UHGV virus genome: UHGV-0324336
DNA from: a virus
DNA: 45,108 bases
Direction: 5' to 3' (one strand)
Positions 1,677 through 17,623 of the stretch are shown here, one piece after another. Numbering within the stretch: position 1 is the stretch's first letter; every line of letters begins with the position of its first letter. A program made the position numbers and the translations under genes. A model generated the notes under the pieces. The model was not told the DNA's origin and made no database searches. It saw only the letters and a program-made list of their open reading frames with translations.

Positions 1677-1947
1677 AATGTTACCGTAATATGTGAGTAT
1701 CCATCGACTAGACACTAAGCAAAAAAGCTCCCGAAGGAGCCTTCATTTTCACTTTCTTAAATCTAACGACAGACGGCTAACATTTAAGTATTGTGAAATA
1801 TTATCAAATGTAATCATCATTGATTTACAAAAGATACATTTTGCCCCGAAAGGATTCCTGTCAGAAACATCAAAAGATGATGTTCTATACTGAGAACCAT
1901 GGCAACACGGGCATCTAAAGTGAATATGGTTTGTAATATTTTCTACC

Positions 1948-2163
1948 TCAAAGTGCCACAACATGAACAGCCGCGGGGCCTTTAGGTCCGTTCTCAATAC
2001 CAAATTCGACTTCCTGATTCTCAGTTAACGTTTTGAAATCGTTGCTCTGAATAGCTGAGAAATGGACAAACACATCTTTGCTACCATCTTTCGGCGTGAT
2101 GAAACCAAAACCTTTTTCAGGGTTAAACCATTTCACTAAACCAGTCATTTTGTTAGACATCAT
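1948..2163 (-). CDS. cold-shock protein, CspA family
   Basis: [38 protein letters not shown]… carries the RNP1/RNP2 motifs (KGFGFI, VFVHF) of the 70-aa CspA OB-fold family. Confidence 0.9.
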
Positions 2164-2523
2164 TATTACCTTTTGAAGAAGTTAGCCCTTGGGCAGAATG
2201 GTCCGAAAAAAAATATCAGAGAGAAAAACCAACAAGGAAATCTCAAGAGGTACAAATAATAAAATTATAACAATGACTGCTTCAGATAATTTTGTAACAA
2301 ACCAGAACACCATTAACGCATGATTAACCAACCATAGCAAGGATTACTTTTGTAAAGAAAAACACACGAATGAAACAATAGCTTTATTTATTAATAAAAC
2401 GTGTCATTCTGTCTAATGACCTTTTATCTTACCCTTAAGATTTCAAGGATTTTGACTCATGGAAGAGTCCTTTTTATTTAAATTTCACATTCAGCGCTAA
2501 AAATAATCCGATTTAATATTAAT

Positions 2524-4935: not shown

Positions 4936-5011
<76 letters not shown>

Positions 5012-5013
5012 AT

Positions 5014-5090
<77 letters not shown>

Positions 5091-5091
5091 A

Positions 5092-5168
5092 CTGGACCGC
5101 CACCGGGGACTCGAACCTCGCACACTCAACTTAAAGGGTTGACGCTCTTTCCTGATGAGCTAGTGGCG
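5092..5168 (-). tRNA. tRNA-like gene with atypical anticodon loop (CCUUUAA; Lys-UUU-like but C33); possible pseudo- or non-canonical tRNA
   Basis: Manual fold: acceptor CCGCCAC/GTGGCGG, D-arm GCTC…GAGC, T-loop TTCGAGT, CCA encoded, but position 33 is C and T-stem has an A·C mismatch. Confidence 0.5.
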
Positions 5169-5169
5169 G

Positions 5170-5245
5170 CTGGTGGCCCTTGCTGGATTTGAACCAGCGA
5201 CCTGGCGATTATGAGTCGCTCGCTCTCACCACTGAGCTAAAGGGC
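5170..5245 (-). tRNA. tRNA-Ile2/Met type (anticodon CAU), ileX/ileZ-like
   Basis: Manual fold: GGCCCTTTAGCTCAGTGGTGAGAGC…CTCATAA…GGTTCAAATCC…GGGCCACCA; closely resembles recalled E. coli ileX (lysidine tRNA-Ile2). Confidence 0.75.
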
Positions 5246-5351
5246 CGGGCGCAGGATAATAACGTTACGAAATCAATGTTGCAAGCATTCAAAAATCACC
5301 CTTATCTCCTCCACCAGCGCATTCACCATGTCTATCCGAGATAAGTGGCAC

Positions 5352-5428: not shown

Positions 5429-5457
5429 AATATATGCCTTTCAATCTACTTTTGCAA
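5429..5457 (-). promoter_or_regulatory. candidate late promoter (pR'-like) with probable qut region
   Basis: Minus strand -35 TTGCAA (5452-5457), 17-nt spacer, -10 TATATT (5429-5434); immediately 3' of the Q-like gene and 5' of the terminator. Confidence 0.45.
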
Positions 5458-6130
5458 CACTTTGCTTTGAAAATGCCGCCTTTTGTTTTGAACGTGTTCT
5501 CATTACAAACAATAAAGCCTCACTATCAAGTCGGTGAAAAATGTGTTTCATTGCAACCCAGTGACGAGTAAATGTTTTGGACCAGTTTTTAGTTGTCACT
5601 CCCGCCAGTAATGCCAGCTCCTGGTATTCATAACCTTCCCCACCAAAAAGTTCTGCTTTTACTGCCTGCGCCGCCAGCCAGATTAATTTTTTCAGGCGTT
5701 CCTGCGTTTTCCCTGCAATTTTTCTGGTACCGGATTGAGTATTAAATTCATTCCACGCCCACTGTGTTATCGCGATCTGATATTCCCAACAAATAATCCC
5801 GCTGTAACACCACAACAACCAGGCTTTATGATGTTCTTCAAGAGACAGAACTGCCCGTCGCCATGATGATGTCGAAAACTCAACCTGACTTACCAGAGCA
5901 ATTGATGAGCCTTTCGCCAGTGATTGTTTTCCCGGTATCGGTGGACTATCCCGCGTTATCATTCTTCCAGTCACTTCATCGCGGTACCGGATTTTTTTAC
6001 GCCTGTAACGCCCTGTATCAAACATGGCATTCTCCTGCCAGGCTTCAAGCTGACCTTTTGTTGCCCCACTCAAATCAGCGGTAGCGATAATGAGCTGCTC
6101 ACGCACAAACTGTAAATACTGGTTATTCAT
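5441..6130 (-). CDS. putative late-gene antiterminator Q-family protein (229 aa)
   Basis: Position after rusA and before the late promoter/terminator and lysis genes; ATGA overlap with rusA; family not confirmed from sequence. Confidence 0.5.
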   Translation of the reverse strand: MNNQYLQFVREQLIIATADLSGATKGQLEAWQENAMFDTGRYRRKKIRYRDEVTGRMITRDSPPIPGKQSLAKGSSIALVSQVEFSTSSWRRAVLSLEEHHKAWLLWCYSGIICWEYQIAITQWAWNEFNTQSGTRKIAGKTQERLKKLIWLAAQAVKAELFGGEGYEYQELALLAGVTTKNWSKTFTRHWVAMKHIFHRLDSEALLFVMRTRSKQKAAFSKQSVAKVD

Positions 6131-6486
6131 GCGCGCTCCAGTTCTGTGATTTTTATCCCCAGCCGACCACCAGGAACAGGCAGTCCGCGCACAATATTGA
6201 TTTCATCAAACTGCTCGTCGTCTATGAGAAGTCCGGCATGCGTCAGCGCATCCAGTGGTGCCTTCAGGATATTGTCCAGGTCGCGGCGGCGCTTATCCGG
6301 TGGCTCTGCAATAATTTTTATTGCCAGCCTTCCGGACAGGTTTAATTTCAACCGCTGCTGGCGAACAATTAGTGCCACATCACGGCGATAACGCTCACCG
6401 ACTTTTGATACAAAATATGTGTTGCCACGACGTCGCCAGTAAGTATTCACCGTCGGCGGATAAGGCAAAACAAACTCTATACGCAT
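6127..6486 (-). CDS. rusA: RusA-family Holliday-junction resolvase
   Basis: 119 aa; PDxRRRDLDN…LDAL…GxxxDD motifs match RusA (120 aa, …RRRDLDNLQKAAFDALT… as recalled). Confidence 0.85.
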   Translation of the reverse strand: MRIEFVLPYPPTVNTYWRRRGNTYFVSKVGERYRRDVALIVRQQRLKLNLSGRLAIKIIAEPPDKRRRDLDNILKAPLDALTHAGLLIDDEQFDEINIVRGLPVPGGRLGIKITELERA

Positions 6487-6498
6487 CAGTAACCTCTT

Positions 6499-7620
6499 TT
6501 ACCCGAGCACGCCGGTTGCAAAGGCGTGATCAAGAAAACGAAAAATTAAATCAACCTGGGAACCATGCTTTTCTTCGAACGCCAGCGGATCCGCATGAAG
6601 TTCGTTGTGATGTTCCCGGCACAACGGTAGCGTGAAAATATCGTGGGCCTTTGTTCCCATCCCTCCCTGACCGTGACCAATCAGGTGATGGGGATCGTCG
6701 GCTGGCTGACCACAACACGCACACGGCTGTGTCTTCACCCAGCGCGTATATTTCTCATTTACCCAACGGCGACGTTTAGGTCGCCTCATGAAAGATTCCG
6801 GAGACTCCGGATCAACGGTGATGCATACCACCGTCTTTTCCTGTGGTGGGTTCTGTTGCTGGTGGGCATGAGGCAACGGCGCAAGATTTTTTGTGCGCTG
6901 CTTCAGTATGCTGGTGGTGGTCTGCTCTCCCGGTACGATGTCGCTTTCGCGGTACAAGGAGCGGATTTTTTCCGCACGTAACCCCAGAGAACGACGTAAT
7001 ACTGCCTCCGGAAGCGCGTCCGCCACCTGATTGCAGACCGCCCACCAGGATAATTCAGCCAGCGACAATTCCCGCTCCTGCGTGCCATTCATTGCATGGC
7101 GTATGACGTCAATCATCCATGCTGACAGGTTTTGATGAGCAAGTTGCCCGAGTGATTCGGATGTCTGGTCACGCAACTGGTTGTCGCAGTGCCAGCACAA
7201 CACCATCGCGCCGGTACCGTAACAATGTATGACGATTTCACTGTGATGATAGTCACCATGAGGCCACTGGCAGGATTTGACATGACGCAACAGCCAGTCA
7301 GACAGTGCCCCAGCGCCGCCAGCAGCACGAATCACCCGCTCATCGCTGAAAAATGGCAGTAATGATTTATCCTCCGCCAGCGGCTGGCGAACGGCAGGGA
7401 CGACTCCGGACGGCAAACCGCGCATGCTTTTCGGTTCAGGCTCCACCAGCACTCGAGGGTTATGAAATACTTGCATGGATTCACGGCCCGGCCTAAGGAC
7501 CACCAGCCCGAGTTCCGGTACCAGAACAGGTCGAAGTAATATCCGCACGTTACCTCCAGATCCGTTGCTGGTATGTGCGGGATGGGCGCGGTGGGCGTTC
7601 GGAATAAGGGAGCCTGACAT
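6499..7620 (-). CDS. HNH-motif protein, DUF968/YdfU-like (start uncertain; alternative ATG at 7476)
   Basis: C-terminal CACCG…DPHHL…GG…N…CREHHNELH is a typical HNH/ββα-Me arrangement; position matches ydfU in Qin. Confidence 0.5.
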   Translation of the reverse strand: MSGSLIPNAHRAHPAHTSNGSGGNVRILLRPVLVPELGLVVLRPGRESMQVFHNPRVLVEPEPKSMRGLPSGVVPAVRQPLAEDKSLLPFFSDERVIRAAGGAGALSDWLLRHVKSCQWPHGDYHHSEIVIHCYGTGAMVLCWHCDNQLRDQTSESLGQLAHQNLSAWMIDVIRHAMNGTQERELSLAELSWWAVCNQVADALPEAVLRRSLGLRAEKIRSLYRESDIVPGEQTTTSILKQRTKNLAPLPHAHQQQNPPQEKTVVCITVDPESPESFMRRPKRRRWVNEKYTRWVKTQPCACCGQPADDPHHLIGHGQGGMGTKAHDIFTLPLCREHHNELHADPLAFEEKHGSQVDLIFRFLDHAFATGVLG

Positions 7621-8124: not shown

Positions 8125-8517
8125 CTACTGCCCTGTTTTAACGAAGTTTTTAAAGGAAACAACTGCCTGATAGGGGTTTGGTTGACAGCCAAACATATTA
8201 TCGCAAAAAGGCTTGATGAAAATTCTTGAGGATCCATCTTCATTTGGCATTTTACTCACTTGATAAGCGAGGAATGGACTATTTGGAGAGGGATTATAAG
8301 TGGAAATTAGCGTGTCTGTCGCCGTTTGAATTTTCCATGAGGAATTATTAGCCAACCAGAATTGCGCTCGTTTCCAATAAAAGTCACATTGCTTTTCATC
8401 ATTACATGTTAGTGGCTTCATTGCTTCTGCTTTCAACGCTGGATCGACCTTTGCTGCACACCCTCCCAACATTACTGTTGCAATCATTACACCTGCGACT
8501 AAAACAAGTTTCTTCAT
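8125..8517 (-). CDS. secreted lipoprotein (moron), function unknown
   Basis: Signal peptide MKKLVLVAGVMIATVMLGGC with lipobox LGGC; several Cys in mature part; flanked by terminators. Confidence 0.7.
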   Translation of the reverse strand: MKKLVLVAGVMIATVMLGGCAAKVDPALKAEAMKPLTCNDEKQCDFYWKRAQFWLANNSSWKIQTATDTLISTYNPSPNSPFLAYQVSKMPNEDGSSRIFIKPFCDNMFGCQPNPYQAVVSFKNFVKTGQ

Positions 8518-8570: not shown

Positions 8571-8592
8571 GGAAAAAACGCCGAAGCGGGTT
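8571..8592 (-). terminator. weak intrinsic terminator 3' of hok
   Basis: Minus strand CCCGC-ttcg-GCG followed by TTTTTT; short stem. Confidence 0.35.
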
Positions 8593-8660
8593 AAGTGCGG
8601 GTGCGTTGAGGATGCCTGACACATCAGAGGTGGCGAGGGATTTCTCCCCCGCCAGGTCTC

Positions 8661-8816
8661 TTACTCCTCAGGTTCGTAAGCTGTGAAGACAGCGACCTCC
8701 GTCTGGCCGGTTCGGATTCGTACCTCGCAGAGGTCTTTCCTCGTTACCAGTGCCGTCACAATGACGGTTAAACAGATGACGATCAGGGCGATTAACATCG
8801 CCTTTTGCTGCTTCAT
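8661..8816 (-). CDS. hok: Hok/Gef-family type I toxin (51 aa)
   Basis: MKQQKAMLIALIVICLTVIVTALVTRKDLCEVRIRTGQTEVAVFTAYEPEE matches the Hok consensus (…CLTLL…LTRKSLCEIR…REVAAFMAYE); in-frame upstream extension in the ORF track may be mok-like. Confidence 0.8.
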   Translation of the reverse strand: MKQQKAMLIALIVICLTVIVTALVTRKDLCEVRIRTGQTEVAVFTAYEPEE

Positions 8817-9463
8817 AGCCTGCTTCTCCTTGCCTTTCGGCACGTAAGAGGCTAACCTAGATTTGCCGTTCATAGATTGAGCCTCAGATTAATGTTAAGC
8901 GTCTTGCAGGACGCGTAATGTTAACTGGGGCTTTTCTCTATCTGCCTTTGGTGTTCATGCCTGAGGCAGATAGCCTCAAGCACCCGCAGCAATTCTACTT
9001 AACTCACGTCACCTCGCCAATATAAAATCAATCAGAAAGGCGATCCATAAGAACAACAGCAAGGCAATAAATTGCCATTACAGCAGCAATAGCCAGCGCA
9101 CATTTGAGAACCAGCACCACAACCTCCTGTATTGGACGTACACCAGTCCTGATAAATATGAGGCTGTCTCGTCAGTGATTCAATACAACTATTGGGTATA
9201 GTTTCTGTGATTTTGTTCTGTAGAAATGGAACACAACAACCAGTCACCACCAGCACTTCTTTAAATACGCCAAGTCCGACGCAAGCTAACTTTCTAGTCC
9301 GCTTTGAGCGAGAAGAGGAAGTTCATAATTATTACCAGTACAGCGTATTACTAATTATTTTTACACTGAAAGCATTGAGGTGAGAAGGGGGTTTTTATGC
9401 TTGATTTAATTATAAAATTGCAGGAAAGTGACCTTGTATCAGCTGATGATGAGTGGGTAAAAA

Positions 9464-10843
9464 ATGTGGAAAGATAAGTATATTTGTCATAAATGCGTGA
9501 ACGATAAATATGTCATGCAGCATATAATAAAAACCGGAAATAATGTTCGGATTTGCTCTTACTGCAAAAGGAAGCGTAAAAACATCCACCTCAAATATAT
9601 TCTCAAGATGATGAATGAGGTTTTTGAGTACTACTATGATATGTATGAGGATATCTATGATTCCGGGCGCGGTGATAGCGCGCAGGATGTCATCTGCGGA
9701 GAACTGGGCGTCGAATGGGACGTAGCTGAAGATATTTATGAATTTCTTTGTGATGAATATAATCCGCATAACGATTATGACTACATCCGGTATAATGATG
9801 GGTTTGTTTATCGGCACATAAATCACTATAGCGGAGAGCTTGCGCATACCTGGAGTAAAGCCACTGACTCCCTTATGAAAGAAACACGATATTTTAACCG
9901 TGAAGTTAATGATTTCCTGGATTCACTTTTCAGTGATATCGATAAACTAAAAAACAGAGACAGTAATTCACCGATAAAAACTCTGACTGATGAGGTTCAT
10001 CTTTTTCGTGCAAGGGTCTTTGAGGACCAAGAGGAAGTAAAGCAAGCCTTGGAGCAGCCCGAGAAAAATTTTGGACCTCCCCCATCAACTTTGGCTCGGT
10101 CGGGCCGTATGAACGCACAGGGGATTTCAGTATTTTACGGTGCAACCTCAGTGAATTTGGCAATTGCTGAAGTAAGGCCGCCCGTCGGCAGTATTGTAGT
10201 AACGGCCTGTTTTGTACCGTTACGCGAGCTAAAAGTGCTGGACATTTCTGCCCTTGACTCGATTAGTTTCGGCTCAGGTAGTAAATTTGATCCTCAGACT
10301 CGCAAAACCAGTGAGCGCGCGATTTTTTTCAGTACGCTTTCCCGTAAGTTGACGCTTCCTACTTTTGGAAAAAGGCAGGACAGTGATTACCTCATCACCC
10401 AAGTGGTTGCCGATTACCTAGGTGACCGAAATAAATTTAAGCTTGATGGTGTCAGCTTTAAATCTACCCAGGTAGATGCCAACGGTGAGGATGCTGAGAT
10501 AGGATATAATGTCGTTCTGTTTAATAAGTCTTCCGGCGTCAGGCATGCCGCAGATAAATCTCGCCGATATAATGTTGAGATGTATGAACACATCGAAGAT
10601 GACCAGTATGCTTTTGTTCCGGAAATTCAGTTAATAGTTGAGGAACAAATAAAACCGAGACATATGGGTTCATTTTCATCCTCGCATGACAAAAATGATG
10701 CACTACTGTTGAAAACCAACAGTATGACTTATCATAAAATTACTGGTGTAAAATACCAAACAAGTGAGACGGAGATTCATCAGGGAGATAGTGTTCGAAA
10801 ACAAGAGCCACCTCAGAAATTCGATGACCTGATGGACTTCTGA
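9464..10843 (+). CDS. RES-domain protein (putative NAD+-targeting effector) with N-terminal CxxC…CxxC zinc-ribbon domain
   Basis: Candidate RES triad R215 (GRMN), E236 (LAIAEV), S331 (DGVSFKS) with intervening YG; N-terminal C8-x2-C11…C31-x2-C34; AT-rich codon usage. Confidence 0.65.
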   Translation: MWKDKYICHKCVNDKYVMQHIIKTGNNVRICSYCKRKRKNIHLKYILKMMNEVFEYYYDMYEDIYDSGRGDSAQDVICGELGVEWDVAEDIYEFLCDEYNPHNDYDYIRYNDGFVYRHINHYSGELAHTWSKATDSLMKETRYFNREVNDFLDSLFSDIDKLKNRDSNSPIKTLTDEVHLFRARVFEDQEEVKQALEQPEKNFGPPPSTLARSGRMNAQGISVFYGATSVNLAIAEVRPPVGSIVVTACFVPLRELKVLDISALDSISFGSGSKFDPQTRKTSERAIFFSTLSRKLTLPTFGKRQDSDYLITQVVADYLGDRNKFKLDGVSFKSTQVDANGEDAEIGYNVVLFNKSSGVRHAADKSRRYNVEMYEHIEDDQYAFVPEIQLIVEEQIKPRHMGSFSSSHDKNDALLLKTNSMTYHKITGVKYQTSETEIHQGDSVRKQEPPQKFDDLMDF

Positions 10844-11304: not shown

Positions 11305-12228
11305 TTAGTGTAATTCCGAAAGGAGCCTAGTAACAAACTCTTTATATGTTGTAGCTTTATAATCAAGCTTACGGTTTTCCTGTCTCATCACCGCGATGAG
11401 AAGACAAGCTGTAAAACACCAGAAGGGCGATGAATCTGAAAGGTTGTACCCCCCTATCATTGTTTGAATCCTTACTGCTATAGATGGATACTCTTCACCA
11501 CCCCATTTATCGATATCTGATGTTAAAGCGTGTATAGTAAAGGCGGCAAGTGTTATCCCCATTGCTCGTTTTTGCATGACCTCTTCATAGGTATGCCCAG
11601 CTTTTTTAGCATAGACTCCGACGCCCTTAGTTATATATTCACGAGCCCAAGAGTCACAGGCTAACTCTTCTTCATCCTTCTCTTGGGGATTTTCATGTTT
11701 TTTTTCTTCGGCTCGTGCTTGAACATGTTTATACTCATGAAGTATAGAAAAAGACAATGCTAATGCTACTAGATCAAAAACAGCCTGTTCTTGAATATTA
11801 TTCAAACTATCTCGCGCATCTGTTGGAAAAGGAATATCTTGAGGCCATGTAATATCAGCCGTATTCGCAACGCTTAGCAAAGACTTTGAAATATACAAAT
11901 GCTGTTTATAATTTAGTTCAAATTGGCCACGTTCTTCATCAGATTCTAAAGCCGACTCTAACGTCACACCTAGTAAGCATGCTTTTACTAGGGCTGGAGC
12001 ATATGTCTCAATCGTAAACCATGTACTAAACCCAAATAACCAAAAGAAATCGATAGTTTTAGAGTCAAACTCGATGCGCCTACTAGTTGCATTCATTGTT
12101 GATCCTAGGGCATCCTCTGCAAGTTCGACCGTGTGTTTATAGCTCTTCCAGGTCTGACAAAGTTCATCAGCATTCTCAGGAACAGCCCCTCTTAGGAGGT
12201 TTAAAACTATAGTATCTAGTGATGGCAT
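11305..12228 (-). CDS. putative zinc metallopeptidase (HExxH), possibly Lit-like phage-exclusion protease
   Basis: Single HEYKH motif at residues 164-168 of 307 aa; size and motif position close to e14 Lit (297 aa, HExxH ~160-164, recalled); AT-rich. Confidence 0.5.
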   Translation of the reverse strand: MPSLDTIVLNLLRGAVPENADELCQTWKSYKHTVELAEDALGSTMNATSRRIEFDSKTIDFFWLFGFSTWFTIETYAPALVKACLLGVTLESALESDEERGQFELNYKQHLYISKSLLSVANTADITWPQDIPFPTDARDSLNNIQEQAVFDLVALALSFSILHEYKHVQARAEEKKHENPQEKDEEELACDSWAREYITKGVGVYAKKAGHTYEEVMQKRAMGITLAAFTIHALTSDIDKWGGEEYPSIAVRIQTMIGGYNLSDSSPFWCFTACLLIAVMRQENRKLDYKATTYKEFVTRLLSELH

Positions 12229-13424: not shown

Positions 13425-13847
13425 TCACTTCAATAAATACCGAACATCCCCCTGATAAAACGACAATATGCGCTGCATAACTTCACTCTTCCGGCACTCG
13501 CGACAGATTATGTTCTGACGCCTGTCGTAGCGACGTATTTCTCCGTCAGGTAATGACCAGATAAGGTCCGGATCAACCGCAGATGGTTTCTTCAGCTTTG
13601 CCCTTGAGAGCTTTTTACGGGCATTTTGCCAGTCCTTACGCGCCTGTTCAGACGGGAATAACCCGTAACCAGAGTTGTATACATCGCCGCTGGCAACCAG
13701 CTCTCTTGCGAGAACGCTCATCAGATATCTTGTCGCACCTGTTTTGACTTCCAGTTGCCGTAACGTCTCACGCCCACTCTGGCGTACGAGTTCAACAACC
13801 TGCCCTTTAATTTTTTCTCGCTCTTCTTGTGTAAAAACTTTTGCCAC
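13425..13847 (-). CDS. hypothetical protein (140 aa) downstream of replication initiator
   Basis: ORF track; possible winged-helix segment; occupies the position of a helicase loader but has no Walker motifs. Confidence 0.45.
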   Translation of the reverse strand: MAKVFTQEEREKIKGQVVELVRQSGRETLRQLEVKTGATRYLMSVLARELVASGDVYNSGYGLFPSEQARKDWQNARKKLSRAKLKKPSAVDPDLIWSLPDGEIRRYDRRQNIICRECRKSEVMQRILSFYQGDVRYLLK

Positions 13848-15029: not shown

Positions 15030-15455
15030 TCAATGTACTGCCACAGCATTTCCTGCCGGGCCACCACGGTTCATCTGATTGAAACCGGCGATTGCCACTG
15101 CGACAAAATCATCAGCGTCTCTCACCAATCGCTCCCGCGTCTCCACCAGCTCCCGAAAATAAGCTGAACTGTGGCTGCGCATTCTGGCCACCAGCAAAGG
15201 TGGCATTGCCTTTTCGATCGCTGGTAACAACGCCTGAATTTTTTCAACTGCATCAGGGGTGTCTTTCTCTACCCAGCGGAAAATTTTCTGGGTATTGCGA
15301 GCCAGGGCTTCCGGATGGCTGTCGTCATACAGTTCAGGAAACGTCATACCCAACTCAAAATAAGCCTGGGTTATTCCAGCTGCTGGAACTTTTTCGCCAT
15401 CAGGACGCGCCCAGGCATTCATCGCCATGCGGATGTGTTCATGCTTGATTTTCAT
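15030..15455 (-). CDS. YdaT-family protein (Rac YdaT-like; proposed CII-like regulator/toxin)
   Basis: 141 aa, starts MKIKHEHIRMAMNAWA…; ATGA-coupled to the cro-like gene as ydaS-ydaT are in Rac (recalled). Confidence 0.55.
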   Translation of the reverse strand: MKIKHEHIRMAMNAWARPDGEKVPAAGITQAYFELGMTFPELYDDSHPEALARNTQKIFRWVEKDTPDAVEKIQALLPAIEKAMPPLLVARMRSHSSAYFRELVETRERLVRDADDFVAVAIAGFNQMNRGGPAGNAVAVH

Positions 15456-15682
15456 GAATCCCCCCCTTGGTTAGAAGGCGGATTATGATCAGAACCGGGA
15501 ATGACAACCGTCGGTATGTGTAACTCATATTTGAGCGCCCCGGCAGTGACTGCCTGAATTAGCAACGCCCATTTCCACGGAACCTCTTCCCCCCACATGC
15601 TGACTGTGGTTTTTGACGTTCCTAGAGCTGCGGCTGTTTTAACAACTCCGCCAAAATAGCCTAATACTTCTGATTTTTTCAT
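15452..15682 (-). CDS. Cro/YdaS-like HTH regulator (76 aa)
   Basis: MKKSEVLGYFGGVVKTAAALGTSKTTVSMW… HTH; GGAG 6 nt upstream of ATG at 15682; divergent from cI. Confidence 0.7.
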   Translation of the reverse strand: MKKSEVLGYFGGVVKTAAALGTSKTTVSMWGEEVPWKWALLIQAVTAGALKYELHIPTVVIPGSDHNPPSNQGGDS

Positions 15683-15710
15683 AAGTCGCTCCATAAAACT
15701 GAACGCCAAA

Positions 15711-15773
15711 ATTTTAATAATCAAAACCAAAGAAAGTCAAGAAACAAAACCATCTGTGTTTTAAAATCAAAAC
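15711..15773. promoter_or_regulatory. OR-like operator region between cro and cI
   Basis: ATTTTAATAATCAAAAC (15711-15727) and GTTTTAAAATCAAAAC (15758-15773, abutting cI ATG): inverted half-sites GTTTT/AAAAC. Confidence 0.45.
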
Positions 15774-16400
15774 ATGAGCAAGCAAACAATATCTGAACGC
15801 ATAACCCAACGTATGCATGCGCTAAACCTGAAAGGCAAAGACCTTGTCAATGCCACTGGCGCATCAAAAGGCTCCGTAAGTCAATGGATGAACGGTGGAG
15901 GAGCGCCGTCCTCGCGTTACATAAGTTCACTGGCAAAGATATTGAAAGTAAACGAAAATTGGCTTCTTAATGGAGGAGAGTTAAATACAGGTGATTCGCT
16001 TGATCTATCTTTACCGCCGATAAAAACGGTTCCGCTACTATCAGCAAGCTGGAGTGATTATATGAAAAATTCCTCAATAACCTCTTGTGTGCAGCTTGTC
16101 GGAGAAATCCCGGCCAATACCTTTGCAGTTGTTCTAGAGAGTGACAGTATGTCAACATCTGGTGGGGGAGTTTCCATCCCAAATGGTTCAACAGTTTTTG
16201 TTGATCCCGATCGAACCGTACAACCAGGAAATATTGTCCTTGCCTTACCCAAAGGGACCACAACACCTGTCATTCGTAAACTGGAGATAGAAGGGCCGGA
16301 TATTCTTTTAGTCCCCACGAATCCTCGCTACCCTTCAATTATGCTGGATGATCTATCTTGCATATTGGGCGTATGCTTTAAAATTCAACAAGATATTTAA
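15774..16400 (+). CDS. CI-like prophage repressor (HTH_XRE + S24 LexA-type autopeptidase)
   Basis: N-terminal HTH (ATGASKGSVSQWMNG); C-terminal S24 signature with Ser in ESDSMS and Lys in VIRKL. Confidence 0.85.
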   Translation: MSKQTISERITQRMHALNLKGKDLVNATGASKGSVSQWMNGGGAPSSRYISSLAKILKVNENWLLNGGELNTGDSLDLSLPPIKTVPLLSASWSDYMKNSSITSCVQLVGEIPANTFAVVLESDSMSTSGGGVSIPNGSTVFVDPDRTVQPGNIVLALPKGTTTPVIRKLEIEGPDILLVPTNPRYPSIMLDDLSCILGVCFKIQQDI

Positions 16401-17565: not shown

Positions 17566-17623
17566 TTTCTGGTGACGTTTGGCGGTATCAGTTTTACTCC
17601 GTGACTGCTCTGCCGCCATTTTT
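17566..17623 (+). ncRNA. dicF: DicF small regulatory RNA (ftsZ-targeting)
   Basis: TTTCTGGTGACGTTTGGCGGTATCAGTTTTACTCCGTGACTGCTCTGCCGCC + T-run matches recalled 53-nt DicF; located between ydfC and dicB as in Qin. Confidence 0.75.

What the first reader, a model, noticed from the sequence alone, without database searches (positions are those of the whole stretch)
8571..9030. Intact-looking hok type I toxin with upstream space for mok/sok, uncoupled from relBE
Hok matches the family consensus and has ~200 nt of upstream untranslated region with an extended in-frame ORF (possible mok-like leader) and GC-rich 3' hairpins (fbi-like). Unlike Qin hokD it is not preceded by relBE, so it may retain its own antisense Sok control.
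Basis: partly seen in the sequence, partly recalled or inferred. Interest (0 to 1): 0.4.

Follow-up and report, generated by a model that had tools for sequence, protein, structure and literature searches.

The report
Intact prophage hok/mok/sok toxin–antitoxin module

Summary
On the minus strand, 9020→8573 holds a full hok/mok/sok type I toxin-antitoxin module.

- **Toxin:** a 51-aa Hok identical to K-12 HokD, with an in-frame 70-codon mok.
- **Leader:** a 169-nt leader matching Rfam RF01794 at 111.7 bits (threshold 59).
- **Switch elements:** every published element is present, namely tac, ucb, mok SD, dcb and fbi.
- **Antitoxin:** a plus-strand Sok gene at 8865→~8935. Its promoter hexamers and spacer are identical to the experimentally validated sokW of Stx phage 933W/Sp5.

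Predicted folds reproduce the textbook switch. The full-length mRNA is closed by tac/fbi and the mok SD is masked. After 3' trimming, tac/ucb forms and the mok SD moves into the Sok-target hairpin.

K-12 hokD shares only 8830→8579. Its leader and sok were replaced by relBE, with the breakpoint inside the Sok -35. No relBE exists in this window.

The intact form is the common one: 4301 of 5426 complete E. coli genomes, against 1165 with the relE-hokD junction. The module is 93.5% identical to hokW/mokW/sokW (annotated 1999, tested 2021).

Peculiarities of this copy are a truncated terminator stem, a distinct Sok 5' tail, and its position inside the prophage early-right operon next to RES-domain and Lit-like genes.

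Verdict: real, correctly interpreted, already known, low interest.

The parts
9015..9020 (-). hok promoter -35-like hexamer TTGGCG
   Evidence: Consensus scan: TTGGCG-17 nt-TAGAAT, 9/12. It lies outside the block conserved in about half of related loci, where homology starts at about 9005. 933W has TTTGCG at the same place.
8992..8997 (-). hok promoter -10 hexamer TAGAAT
   Evidence: Conserved in hokD-type loci as TAGAAT/TAAAAT/TAAGAT. It lies 7 nt upstream of the position where the Rfam model and the R1 +1 align.
8573..8985 (-). Predicted full-length hok mRNA (about 410 nt); the 5' end is inferred by homology to R1 +1, and the 3' end is uncertain
   Evidence: The R1-type reference aligns from GG(C/U)GCUUGAGG. 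MFE -167 kcal/mol, z=-6.9. Across 89 sequences 94.8% of cells are paired, with 40 pairs carrying compensatory changes against 16.8 in shuffles.
8974..8985 (-). tac (translational activator element), the 5'-terminal 12 nt
   Evidence: It has three predicted partners: fbi in the full-length fold, ucb in the 3'-trimmed fold, and the adjacent GCCUCAGGC(A) in nascent 30-50-nt transcripts, the metastable hairpin at -19.6 kcal/mol. Nearly invariant.
8925..8933 (-). ucb / anti-SD box (AAGCCCCAG)
   Evidence: In the full-length fold 8932-8925 pairs with 8887-8880, which contains the mok SD, with the same C·A mismatch as R1 (PMC9841398). In the trimmed fold 8933-8927 pairs with tac (98.9% of cells paired).
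8882..8885 (-). mok Shine-Dalgarno GAGG
   Evidence: 8 nt upstream of the mok AUG. Masked by ucb in the full-length fold and placed in the SD/dcb stem of the Sok-target hairpin in the trimmed fold.
8661..8873 (-). mok reading frame (70 codons, in frame with hok and sharing its stop)
   Evidence: ORF list. Same architecture as the annotated mokW of 933W, also 213 nt. Codons 2-5 are the variable hotspot of the leader.
8848..8853 (-). dcb (AGCCUC), alternative partner of the mok SD
   Evidence: Pairs with 8885-8880 in the trimmed-mRNA fold. 94.7% of cells paired and invariant. It abuts the Sok -10 box on the other strand, as reported for R1 (PMC9841398).
8830..8835 (+). Sok promoter -35 TTGCCT
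   Evidence: Same position and 17-nt spacing as R1 TTGCGC. Identical in sokW of 933W. The K-12 hokD homology breakpoint (8830/8831) falls inside it.
8853..8858 (+). Sok promoter -10 TAACCT
   Evidence: Aligns with R1 TATCCT and is identical to sokW. One variable column among 70 hokD-type sequences. Missed by the generic promoter scan because it matches only 3 of 6 consensus positions.
8865..8939 (+). Sok antisense RNA (about 71-75 nt): 5' single-stranded tail 8865-8878, hairpin 8879-8933, U-rich tail to 8935-8939
   Evidence: Fold -31.5 kcal/mol, z=-5.3. Same architecture as 64-nt R1 Sok. The 71-nt sokW misc_RNA annotated in AF125520 maps to 8865->8935.
8826..8830 (-). hok Shine-Dalgarno AGGAG
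   Evidence: 9 nt upstream of the hok AUG. Invariant across the family alignment. It is the first base block retained in K-12 hokD.
8661..8816 (-). hok toxin gene (51 aa, identical to K-12 HokD/RelF)
   Evidence: Pfam PF01848 E=3e-23. PHROG 251 'MokW-like host killing' E=2.8e-33. 51/51 identity with K-12 HokD. No stop codon or frameshift in 70 related sequences.
8675..8678 (-). UACG motif at Hok Tyr47 (candidate TadA A-to-I editing site, Tyr->Cys)
   Evidence: Sequence read directly. Editing of the equivalent codon in K-12 hokD mRNA is reported in PMC5630033.
8631..8654 (-). GC-rich 3' hairpin (10 bp, GAAA loop), the likely 3' end protector of the processed mRNA
   Evidence: Folds. It corresponds in position to the R1 hairpin that ends the 361-nt truncated mRNA. 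Compensatory changes are seen in the alignment (helices 16-17).
8599..8611 (-). fbi (fold-back inhibitory element) CCUCAACGCACCC
   Evidence: 12 bp plus one bulge with tac. 98.0% of cells paired in 89 sequences (helix 1). It is the last conserved block in the IncY phage-plasmid and 933W copies.
8573..8588 (-). Weak terminator: CGC-UUCG-GCG followed by U6
   Evidence: In this allele the stem is cut from 5 to 3 bp (GG->TT at 8578/8577), giving -3.1 against -8.7 kcal/mol. The allele is in 15 of the fetched loci, against 82 with the full stem. The terminator scan does not detect it.

Best explanation
Window 9020->8573 (minus strand) is a complete hok/mok/sok type I toxin-antitoxin cassette of the hokD/hokW subgroup. 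It is carried in the early-right (Cro-to-Q) region of a Qin-like lambdoid prophage of E. coli.

The mechanism is inferred from the R1 and hokW paradigms, and each sequence requirement is met here:

1. A weak promoter makes a roughly 410-nt hok mRNA.
2. While the transcript is nascent, tac is held in a local hairpin.
3. In the finished transcript the 5' tac pairs with the 3' fbi, and ucb masks the mok Shine-Dalgarno. The stable full-length mRNA is therefore neither translated nor bound by Sok.
4. Slow 3' exonucleolytic trimming removes fbi.
5. tac then pairs with ucb, and the mok SD moves into a hairpin with dcb whose loop is complementary to the 5' end of Sok.
6. If the short-lived roughly 71-nt Sok RNA (plus strand, 8865->~8935) is present, it binds, blocks mok and hence the coupled hok translation, and the duplex is degraded.
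7. If Sok synthesis stops or is overwhelmed, Mok/Hok are translated and the 51-aa Hok depolarises the inner membrane.

Shown here: all sequence elements, their predicted alternative pairings, their conservation, and identity of the toxin and of the Sok promoter to experimentally tested relatives.

Inferred: expression, processing, killing, and the biological role. By analogy with hokW-sokW, the most likely role is accelerating lysis and phage release on prophage induction and/or stabilising the prophage.
For: - Family matches: Rfam RF01794 at 111.7 bits against a threshold of 59; Pfam HOK_GEF E=3e-23.
- Toxin: Hok is identical to K-12 HokD, whose CDS is toxic (bioRxiv 10.1101/2025.08.07.668861).
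- Alignment: the locus aligns element by element with an R1-type parB locus.
- Full-length fold: closes tac with fbi and masks the mok SD, z=-6.9.
- Trimmed fold: gives tac/ucb and SD/dcb.
- Nascent fold: gives the metastable tac hairpin.
- Covariation: 94.8% of cells are paired in 89 homologues, with 40 compensatory pairs against 16.8+/-2.6 in shuffles and about 40% paired in slid controls.
- Conservation: functional boxes are nearly invariant while flanks vary, and the homology block in about 140 loci ends at the promoter and at fbi or the terminator.
- Sok: the candidate has the architecture of R1 Sok, z=-5.3, and coincides with the annotated 71-nt sokW of phage 933W.
- Closest tested relative: the module is 93.5% identical to 933W's and has an identical Sok -35/spacer/-10. 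For hokW-sokW, PMC8621323 shows toxin activity, promoter-dependent antitoxin activity, detection of both RNAs in lysogens, loss of sokW on induction, and a role in lysis and phage release.
Against: - No expression data exist for this allele.
- The intrinsic terminator stem is truncated to 3 bp (-3.1 kcal/mol) and is not recognised by the terminator scan. The 3' end of the primary transcript is therefore uncertain, and read-through into the downstream lipoprotein gene is possible.
- The Sok -10 (TAACCT) matches only 3 of 6 consensus positions.
- The switch helices tac/ucb and SD/dcb are invariant, so covariation neither supports nor refutes them.
- A crude count of variant hok codons (9 synonymous, 25 non-synonymous) shows no clear purifying selection on the protein.
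- Several chromosomal hok loci tested in the past did not mediate post-segregational killing, as summarised in bioRxiv 10.1101/2025.08.07.668861.
- NCBIfam Hok models score below their curated cut-offs (48.5 against 73).
Confidence: 0.85

Rival explanations
1. The locus looks intact but is a silent or decaying remnant. It makes too little hok mRNA or Hok to matter, like the inactivated hokA/B/C/E loci of K-12, and persists only by hitch-hiking with the prophage.
For: - The terminator stem is truncated in this allele.
- The -35 of the hok promoter lies outside the conserved block.
- The synonymous to non-synonymous count in hok is about neutral.
- Decayed copies and IS-disrupted copies exist among relatives: L094 has a scrambled tac, and L026 has an IS4-family insertion after fbi.
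- Earlier tests of some chromosomal hok loci found no post-segregational killing (cited in bioRxiv 10.1101/2025.08.07.668861).
Against: - Every regulatory box is intact and nearly invariant across 70 close relatives, while neighbouring non-functional positions vary.
- No frameshift or stop occurs in hok or mok here.
- The toxin is identical to a demonstrably toxic one.
- The Sok promoter is identical to a functional one (PMC8621323).
- The 93.5%-identical hokW-sokW is expressed and has a phenotype in lysogens (PMC8621323).
Confidence: 0.1
2. The module works mechanistically as above, but its selected role is abortive infection or exclusion of other phages rather than prophage maintenance or lysis timing. 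Shut-off of host transcription by an infecting phage would deplete unstable Sok and release Hok. On this view it is part of a small defence island.
For: - It sits beside a RES-domain/HEPN_RES_NTD1 protein (9464-10843, +) and a Lit-like Peptidase_U49 protein (11305-12228, -).
- The flank upstream of hok is a variable cargo site: L001 has a different gene there.
- R1 hok/sok is reported to exclude T4 (cited in PMC8621323 and PMC7438911).
Against: - A large survey found no enrichment of hok near defence systems (bioRxiv 10.1101/2025.08.07.668861).
- PADLOC has no model matching Hok, the RES protein or the lipoprotein.
- The only experimental test of a near-identical prophage copy found a role in induction-dependent lysis (PMC8621323).
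- The roles are not mutually exclusive.
Confidence: 0.2
3. Hok here is expressed mainly from read-through transcripts of the prophage early-right operon, as K-12 hokD is from the relBEF operon. Sok and the 5'/3' fold-back would then be largely irrelevant.
For: - The module is co-oriented with Cro->YdaT->DUF977->...->DUF968->RusA->Q.
- No terminator-like site separates it from upstream genes apart from the opposite-strand RES gene.
Against: - Read-through transcripts would still contain tac, ucb, fbi and the Sok target.
- The strict conservation of the module's own promoter -10, tac at a defined 5' end, and the Sok gene argues that the autonomous circuit is what is selected.
- The same module occurs at quite different positions in other phages, for example near the right end of 933W and on IncY phage-plasmids.
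Confidence: 0.05

Closest known systems
hokW / mokW / sokW of Stx2 phages 933W and Sp5 (GenBank AF125520; functional study PMC8621323)
   Same: - 93.5% nucleotide identity from the hok -10 box to fbi.
- The same 70-codon mok and 51-codon hok.
- The same Sok -35/spacer/-10 and Sok hairpin, differing by one loop base.
- The annotated sokW coordinates coincide with the Sok predicted here.
- Both are carried by lambdoid prophages.
   Different: - Six of the first ten Sok nucleotides (mok codons 2-5: MNGKS here, MLNTC in 933W) differ.
- Hok differs at a few residues.
- The 3' flank and terminator are unrelated beyond fbi.
- In 933W the module lies near the right end of the phage genome, whereas here it lies between the replication region and Q.
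hok/mok/sok (parB) of plasmid R1 and IncF plasmids
   Same: - The same order and spacing of tac, ucb, Sok target, mok SD/AUG, dcb/Sok -10, Sok -35, hok SD, hok, 3' hairpin and fbi.
- The same predicted full-length and truncated conformations.
- The same C·A mismatch in the ucb/SD stem.
   Different: - Only about 65-70% nucleotide identity overall; PMC8621323 reports 44% protein identity between HokW, which differs from this Hok at only a few residues, and R1 Hok.
- The Sok hairpin is 13-16 nt longer here, and the 5' hairpin is 16 nt shorter.
- mok is in frame with hok here.
- It is prophage-borne rather than plasmid-borne.
hokD (relF) of the relBEF operon, Qin prophage, E. coli K-12
   Same: - An identical 51-aa toxin.
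- 98% nucleotide identity from the hok SD to the terminator, 8830->8579.
- The same relative position, upstream of the DUF968 (ydfU)-Q genes of a Qin-like prophage.
   Different: - K-12 lacks the hok promoter, tac, ucb, mok start, Sok target and the whole Sok gene. All of these are replaced by relB-relE, with the breakpoint inside the Sok -35.
- K-12 keeps the full 5-bp terminator stem.
- The downstream neighbour is rem in K-12 and a 130-aa lipoprotein gene here.

Membership tests
[quoted passage not shown] | Hok/Gef-family small membrane toxin ORF | tested here: met
   Pfam PF01848 at 81.6 bits against a cut-off of 22. PHROG 251 E=2.8e-33. Identical to K-12 HokD. NCBIfam Hok models hit but score below their curated cut-offs.
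[quoted passage not shown] | Conserved hok mRNA leader (Rfam RF01794 at or above its gathering score) | tested here: met
   111.7 bits against 59, full-length model match at 8985->8811. The match is on the hok-coding strand, so the model represents the leader, the complement of Sok.
[quoted passage not shown] | Overlapping mok reading frame with its own Shine-Dalgarno, through which hok translation is coupled | tested here: met
   A 70-codon ORF at 8873->8661, with GAGG 8 nt upstream of its AUG. Same architecture as the annotated mokW. The coupling itself cannot be tested here.
[quoted passage not shown] | cis-encoded antisense Sok gene (promoter, 5' tail, hairpin, U-tail) overlapping the mok translation-initiation region | tested here: met
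   TTGCCT-17-TAACCT at the R1-homologous position. A 75-nt fold with z=-5.3. It coincides with the annotated sokW and has an identical promoter. Transcription was not tested.
[quoted passage not shown] | Long-range tac/fbi pairing closing the full-length mRNA | tested here: met
   12 bp plus 1 bulge in both the MFE and the centroid. 98.0% of cells paired in 89 sequences, with one compensatory pair.
[quoted passage not shown] | Alternative pairings: ucb/mok-SD in the full-length mRNA; tac/ucb and mok-SD/dcb in the truncated mRNA; a metastable tac hairpin in the nascent RNA | tested here: met
   All three states are the MFE structures of the corresponding transcript lengths. They pair in 95-99% of homologues, but the columns are invariant, so covariation is uninformative.
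[quoted passage not shown] | Defined 3' end / intrinsic terminator downstream of fbi | tested here: inconclusive
   Only a 3-bp stem plus U6 in this allele (-3.1 kcal/mol). The scan does not detect it. Most relatives have a 5-bp stem.
[quoted passage not shown] | 3' processing to an active mRNA, Sok-dependent RNase III decay, killing when Sok is lost | not testable with these tools
   These require northern blots, a rifampicin chase and viability assays. They have been shown for R1 (PMC9841398 and references in it) and partly for hokW-sokW (PMC8621323).
relBEF-type hokD (K-12 arrangement) | hok immediately preceded by relB-relE, with the hok leader and sok absent | tested here: not met
   Homology to K-12 starts at 8830, and the upstream sequence is unrelated. 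No relB or relE anywhere in the window.
hokW-sokW (933W/Sp5) allele | Same Sok recognition (5' tail) sequence and same genomic position | tested here: not met
   Six of the first ten Sok nucleotides differ, and the flanking genes are different. The rest of the module is 93.5% identical, so this is a sister allele and not the same one.

The most novel reading that the evidence does not exclude
The only strongly variable part of the module is the 12-15 nt spanning mok codons 2-5. This segment encodes the loop of the Sok-target hairpin on one strand and the single-stranded 5' end of Sok on the other. It may be under diversifying selection that gives each prophage-borne copy a private antitoxin specificity. 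Co-resident copies (median 2, up to 10 per E. coli genome) would then not cross-protect, and each prophage would keep its own addiction or lysis-timing switch. In this copy, the truncated terminator and the co-orientation with the early-right operon would additionally tie Hok release, and expression of the downstream lipoprotein, to prophage induction.
Probability: 0.2. Interest if true: 0.35.

Novelty: already known. Interest (0 to 1): 0.1.

Why it matters
The locus has little intrinsic importance.

It does illustrate that the textbook K-12 hokD is the derived, minority state: relBE replaced the leader and sok. The autonomous hok/mok/sok cassette is what most E. coli prophages carry.

There are two practical points:
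- RefSeq annotates only the hokD CDS at these loci, with no mok and no Sok RNA.
- The Rfam 'sok' model matches the hok-coding strand, so automated annotation would place Sok on the wrong strand.

If the specificity idea in the novel case were true, it would bear on how many near-identical type I modules coexist in one cell.

Tried and rejected
1. The generic sigma-70 scan found the hok promoter but not the Sok promoter, because TAACCT matches 3 of 6 positions. It found no terminator for either hok or Sok. This was resolved by positional homology to R1 and to the annotated sokW.
2. Covariation was used to test tac/ucb and SD/dcb. The columns are invariant, so the result is uninformative.
3. A crude synonymous to non-synonymous count in hok gave 9:25. 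This is not evidence of purifying selection. It is confounded by RNA-structure constraints on synonymous sites and by sampling the relatives closest to the query.
4. PADLOC gave no hits for Hok, the RES protein or the lipoprotein. NCBIfam Hok models scored below their cut-offs.
5. Sub-threshold Rfam hits in the region were treated as chance: ceN48, fungal SRP, isrK at 8573-8652 with E=0.92, and a plus-strand 'sok' hit at 20.5 bits.
6. The 29/30-codon hydrophobic ORF upstream (9117/9120->9028) was considered as a possible second small toxin. It has no family match. It is intact in 25 of 25 variants, but the whole 320-bp block is 93-99% conserved, so coding is unproven.
7. Two scripts failed because locus L002 was not yet on the script machine. 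The alignment tool was used instead.
8. The YUNR/U-turn motif in the target loop was looked for by eye only and was not pursued.
Full report
**What is there**

The feature lies on the minus strand.
- The ORF list gives a 70-codon frame at 8873->8661. Its last 51 codons (8816->8661) are Hok: MKQQKAMLIALIVICLTVIVTALVTRKDLCEVRIRTGQTEVAVFTAYEPEE.
- The frame matches Pfam HOK_GEF at 81.6 bits against a cut-off of 22, and PHROG 251 'MokW-like host killing'.
- The 51-aa protein is identical to K-12 HokD/RelF.
- An Rfam scan of the whole window gives a full-length match to RF01794 ('sok') at 8985->8811, 111.7 bits against a gathering score of 59, E=1e-24.
- That match is on the hok-coding strand and runs into the hok start codon. 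The model therefore describes the hok mRNA leader, the complement of Sok, and not Sok itself.

**Element map**

I used an R1-type parB sequence as reference. It matches IncF plasmids at 100% over 433 nt. Alignment shows the window has every block in the same order. Element definitions follow PMC9841398.

| Element | Coordinates | Strand |
|---|---|---|
| hok promoter TTGGCG-17-TAGAAT | 9020-8992 | - |
| +1 | 8985/8984 | - |
| tac | 8985-8974 | - |
| ucb / anti-SD | 8933-8925 | - |
| mok SD GAGG | 8885-8882 | - |
| mok AUG | 8873 | - |
| dcb | 8853-8848 | - |
| hok SD | 8830-8826 | - |
| hok AUG | 8816 | - |
| stop codon | 8663-8661 | - |
| GC-rich hairpin, GAAA loop | 8654-8631 | - |
| fbi | 8611-8599 | - |
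| short hairpin plus U6 | 8588-8573 | - |
| Sok promoter TTGCCT (8830-8835)-17 nt-TAACCT (8853-8858) | 8830-8858 | + |
| Sok RNA | ~8865 to 8935-8939 | + |

The Sok promoter has exactly the spacing of R1's TTGCGC-17-TATCCT. The Sok RNA has a 14-nt single-stranded 5' tail, a long hairpin and a U-rich tail. It folds at -31.5 kcal/mol with z=-5.3.

**Predicted behaviour**

- The 414-nt transcript folds at -167 kcal/mol, z=-6.9. Its first 12 nt pair with fbi, and ucb pairs across the mok SD with the same C·A mismatch as in R1.
- Removing fbi, with 3' ends anywhere from 8612 to 8629, switches the MFE to a tac/ucb stem. It also gives a hairpin in which the mok SD pairs with dcb. The loop of that hairpin (mok codons 2-3) is complementary to the 5' end of Sok.
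- Nascent 30-50-nt transcripts form an 11-bp hairpin that sequesters tac.

These are the three states described for R1 (PMC9841398).

**Comparative support**

I fetched 142 related loci from phage and genome collections.
- Homology to the window almost always begins at about 8993-9005 and ends at 8573-8599. This is a discrete cassette running from the -10 box to fbi or the terminator.
- On an alignment of 89 distinct sequences, 94.8% of cells in the full-length structure are paired, against 34-42% when partners are slid.
- Forty pairs show compensatory changes, against 16.8+/-2.6 in shuffles.
- tac/fbi is 98% paired.
- The switch helices pair in 95-99% of sequences but never vary, so covariation neither supports nor refutes them. 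Invariance would be expected if each box has to fit two or three partners.
- Among 70 close relatives, tac, ucb, the Sok -10 and -35, the hok SD and fbi are nearly invariant. Variation concentrates in the flanks, in helices that tolerate compensation, and above all in 8878-8859, the target of Sok's 5' tail.

**Relation to K-12 hokD and prevalence**

- K-12 shares only 8830->8579 (98% identity). Everything upstream is relE-relB, and the breakpoint lies inside the Sok -35 hexamer.
- The window contains no relB, relE or rem.
- A leader probe (8790-8990) is covered at 80% or more in 4301 of 5426 complete E. coli genomes, with a median of 2 and up to 10 places per genome.
- The K-12 relE-hokD junction is found in 1165 genomes.
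- The 521-bp region is 100% identical in many chromosomes. RefSeq annotates only 'hokD' there, with no mok and no Sok.

**Closest described relative**

- 102 phage records carry the module.
- Phage 933W (AF125520) annotates mokW, hokW and a 71-nt 'SokW antisense RNA'. Transferred to the window, that RNA is 8865->8935, matching my independent prediction.
- Identity is 93.5% from the -10 box to fbi.
- The Sok promoter hexamers and spacer are identical.
- The differences cluster in mok codons 2-5, where 6 of the first 10 Sok nucleotides differ.
- Takada et al. (PMC8621323) reported several results for hokW-sokW in the Sp5 prophage:
  - HokW is toxic.
  - sokW expressed from its own promoter protects, partly through RNase III and Hfq.
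  - Both RNAs are present in lysogens.
  - sokW disappears on RecA-dependent induction.
  - HokW appears about 1 h before the endolysin.
  - Deleting the locus halves phage release.
- Surveys report up to about 12 hok/sok loci per E. coli strain, many of them intact (PMC4147584), and enrichment of hok in prophages (bioRxiv 10.1101/2025.08.07.668861).

**Context**

The window is a Qin-like lambdoid prophage. The main genes, in coordinate order:

| Feature | Coordinates | Strand |
|---|---|---|
| DicF | 17567-17618 | + |
| cI-like repressor | 15774-16400 | + |
| Cro | 15452-15730 | - |
| YdaT | 15030-15455 | - |
| DUF977 | 13425-13847 | - |
| Lit-like Peptidase_U49 | 11305-12228 | - |
| RES/HEPN_RES_NTD1 protein | 9464-10843 | + |
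| hok module | 9020-8573 | - |
| 130-aa lipoprotein | 8125-8517 | - |
| DUF968 | 6499-7620 | - |
| RusA | about 6127-6486, transferred from L001 | - |
| Q | 5441-6130 | - |
| four tRNAs | 4940-5246 | - |

The module is therefore co-oriented with the early-right operon. It occupies the same relative position as hokD in Qin.

**Peculiarities of this copy**

- The 3' arm of the terminator reads GCGTT instead of GCGGG, so the stem drops from 5 to 3 bp (-3.1 against -8.7 kcal/mol). This allele goes with the window's particular downstream flank. It is present in 15 of the fetched loci, against 82 with the full stem. The junction with the flank therefore lies inside the terminator, and read-through is possible.
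- The Sok 5' tail (GCCGUUCAUA...) is one of at least a dozen alleles. In the two genomes sampled that carry three hokD-type copies, all three tails differ. This is anecdotal.

**Verdict**

The observation and the interpretation are both right. The object is a standard, very common and already described kind of element. A near-identical relative has been characterised experimentally, and identical copies sit in public genomes. Interest is low. What remains untested is expression and the biological role of this allele.

Noticed in passing
window 9005-9320 (minus strand); ORF 9117/9120->9028: A block of about 320 bp immediately upstream of the hok promoter is 93-99% conserved in about 31 related loci. 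It contains a 29/30-codon hydrophobic ORF, (V)VLVLKCALAIAAVMAIYCLAVVLMDRLSD, with a strong AGGAGG Shine-Dalgarno. The ORF is intact in all 25 distinct variants. It has no Pfam, PHROG or NCBIfam match and is not annotated in RefSeq. It could be a small membrane protein or a non-coding element.
   Followed up: partly
window 9464-10843 (+) and 11305-12228 (-): A 459-aa RES-domain protein with a weak HEPN_RES_NTD1 match and a 307-aa Lit-like Peptidase_U49 protein lie next to hok. They are candidate abortive-infection cargo in a variable slot of the prophage: strain 165 has a different gene in place of the RES gene. Neither protein has a PADLOC match.
   Followed up: partly
window 8573-8590: The hok terminator stem is truncated (GG->TT at 8578/8577) exactly where homology to most other copies ends. 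The recombination junction with the downstream lipoprotein-gene flank therefore lies inside the terminator. Read-through into 8517->8125 is possible.
   Followed up: partly
window 8675-8678 (minus strand): Hok Tyr47 is encoded by UAC followed by G, the TadA A-to-I editing motif. This motif is reported to recode Tyr to Cys in K-12 hokC/D/E mRNAs (PMC5630033).
   Followed up: no
window 8811-8985: The Rfam RF01794 'sok' model matches the hok-coding strand and ends at the hok start codon. Annotation pipelines using it would place 'Sok' on the wrong strand. RefSeq annotates neither Sok nor mok at identical loci.
   Followed up: yes
L026:3287-4613 (viral contig IMGVR_UViG_2547132254_000003): A 1327-bp IS4-family element (402-aa DDE_Tnp_1 transposase) is inserted between fbi and the terminator of an otherwise identical module. 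It has an 11-bp target duplication, GCACTTAACCC, equivalent to window 8598-8588. From memory, this resembles the IS insertions beside K-12 hok loci.
   Followed up: partly
window 8859-8878; loci L085/L091/L094 and L086/L089/L092: mok codons 2-5, the target of Sok's 5' tail, exist in at least 13 alleles among the fetched loci. The three hokD-type copies co-resident in each of two genomes all carry different alleles.
   Followed up: partly
window 1902-2318 (-), 4940-5246 (-), 17567-17618 (+): Other RNA features of the prophage are a cspA-type thermoregulator leader (109.8 bits), a cluster of four tRNA genes downstream of Q, and DicF sRNA (73.4 bits).
   Followed up: no
L004 (Shigella flexneri IncY plasmid NZ_CP055201) 1501-1897: An 88.5%-identical hokD-type module sits on P1-like IncY phage-plasmids of Escherichia, Shigella and Salmonella. 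Homology ends right after fbi, and a different terminator follows.
   Followed up: no
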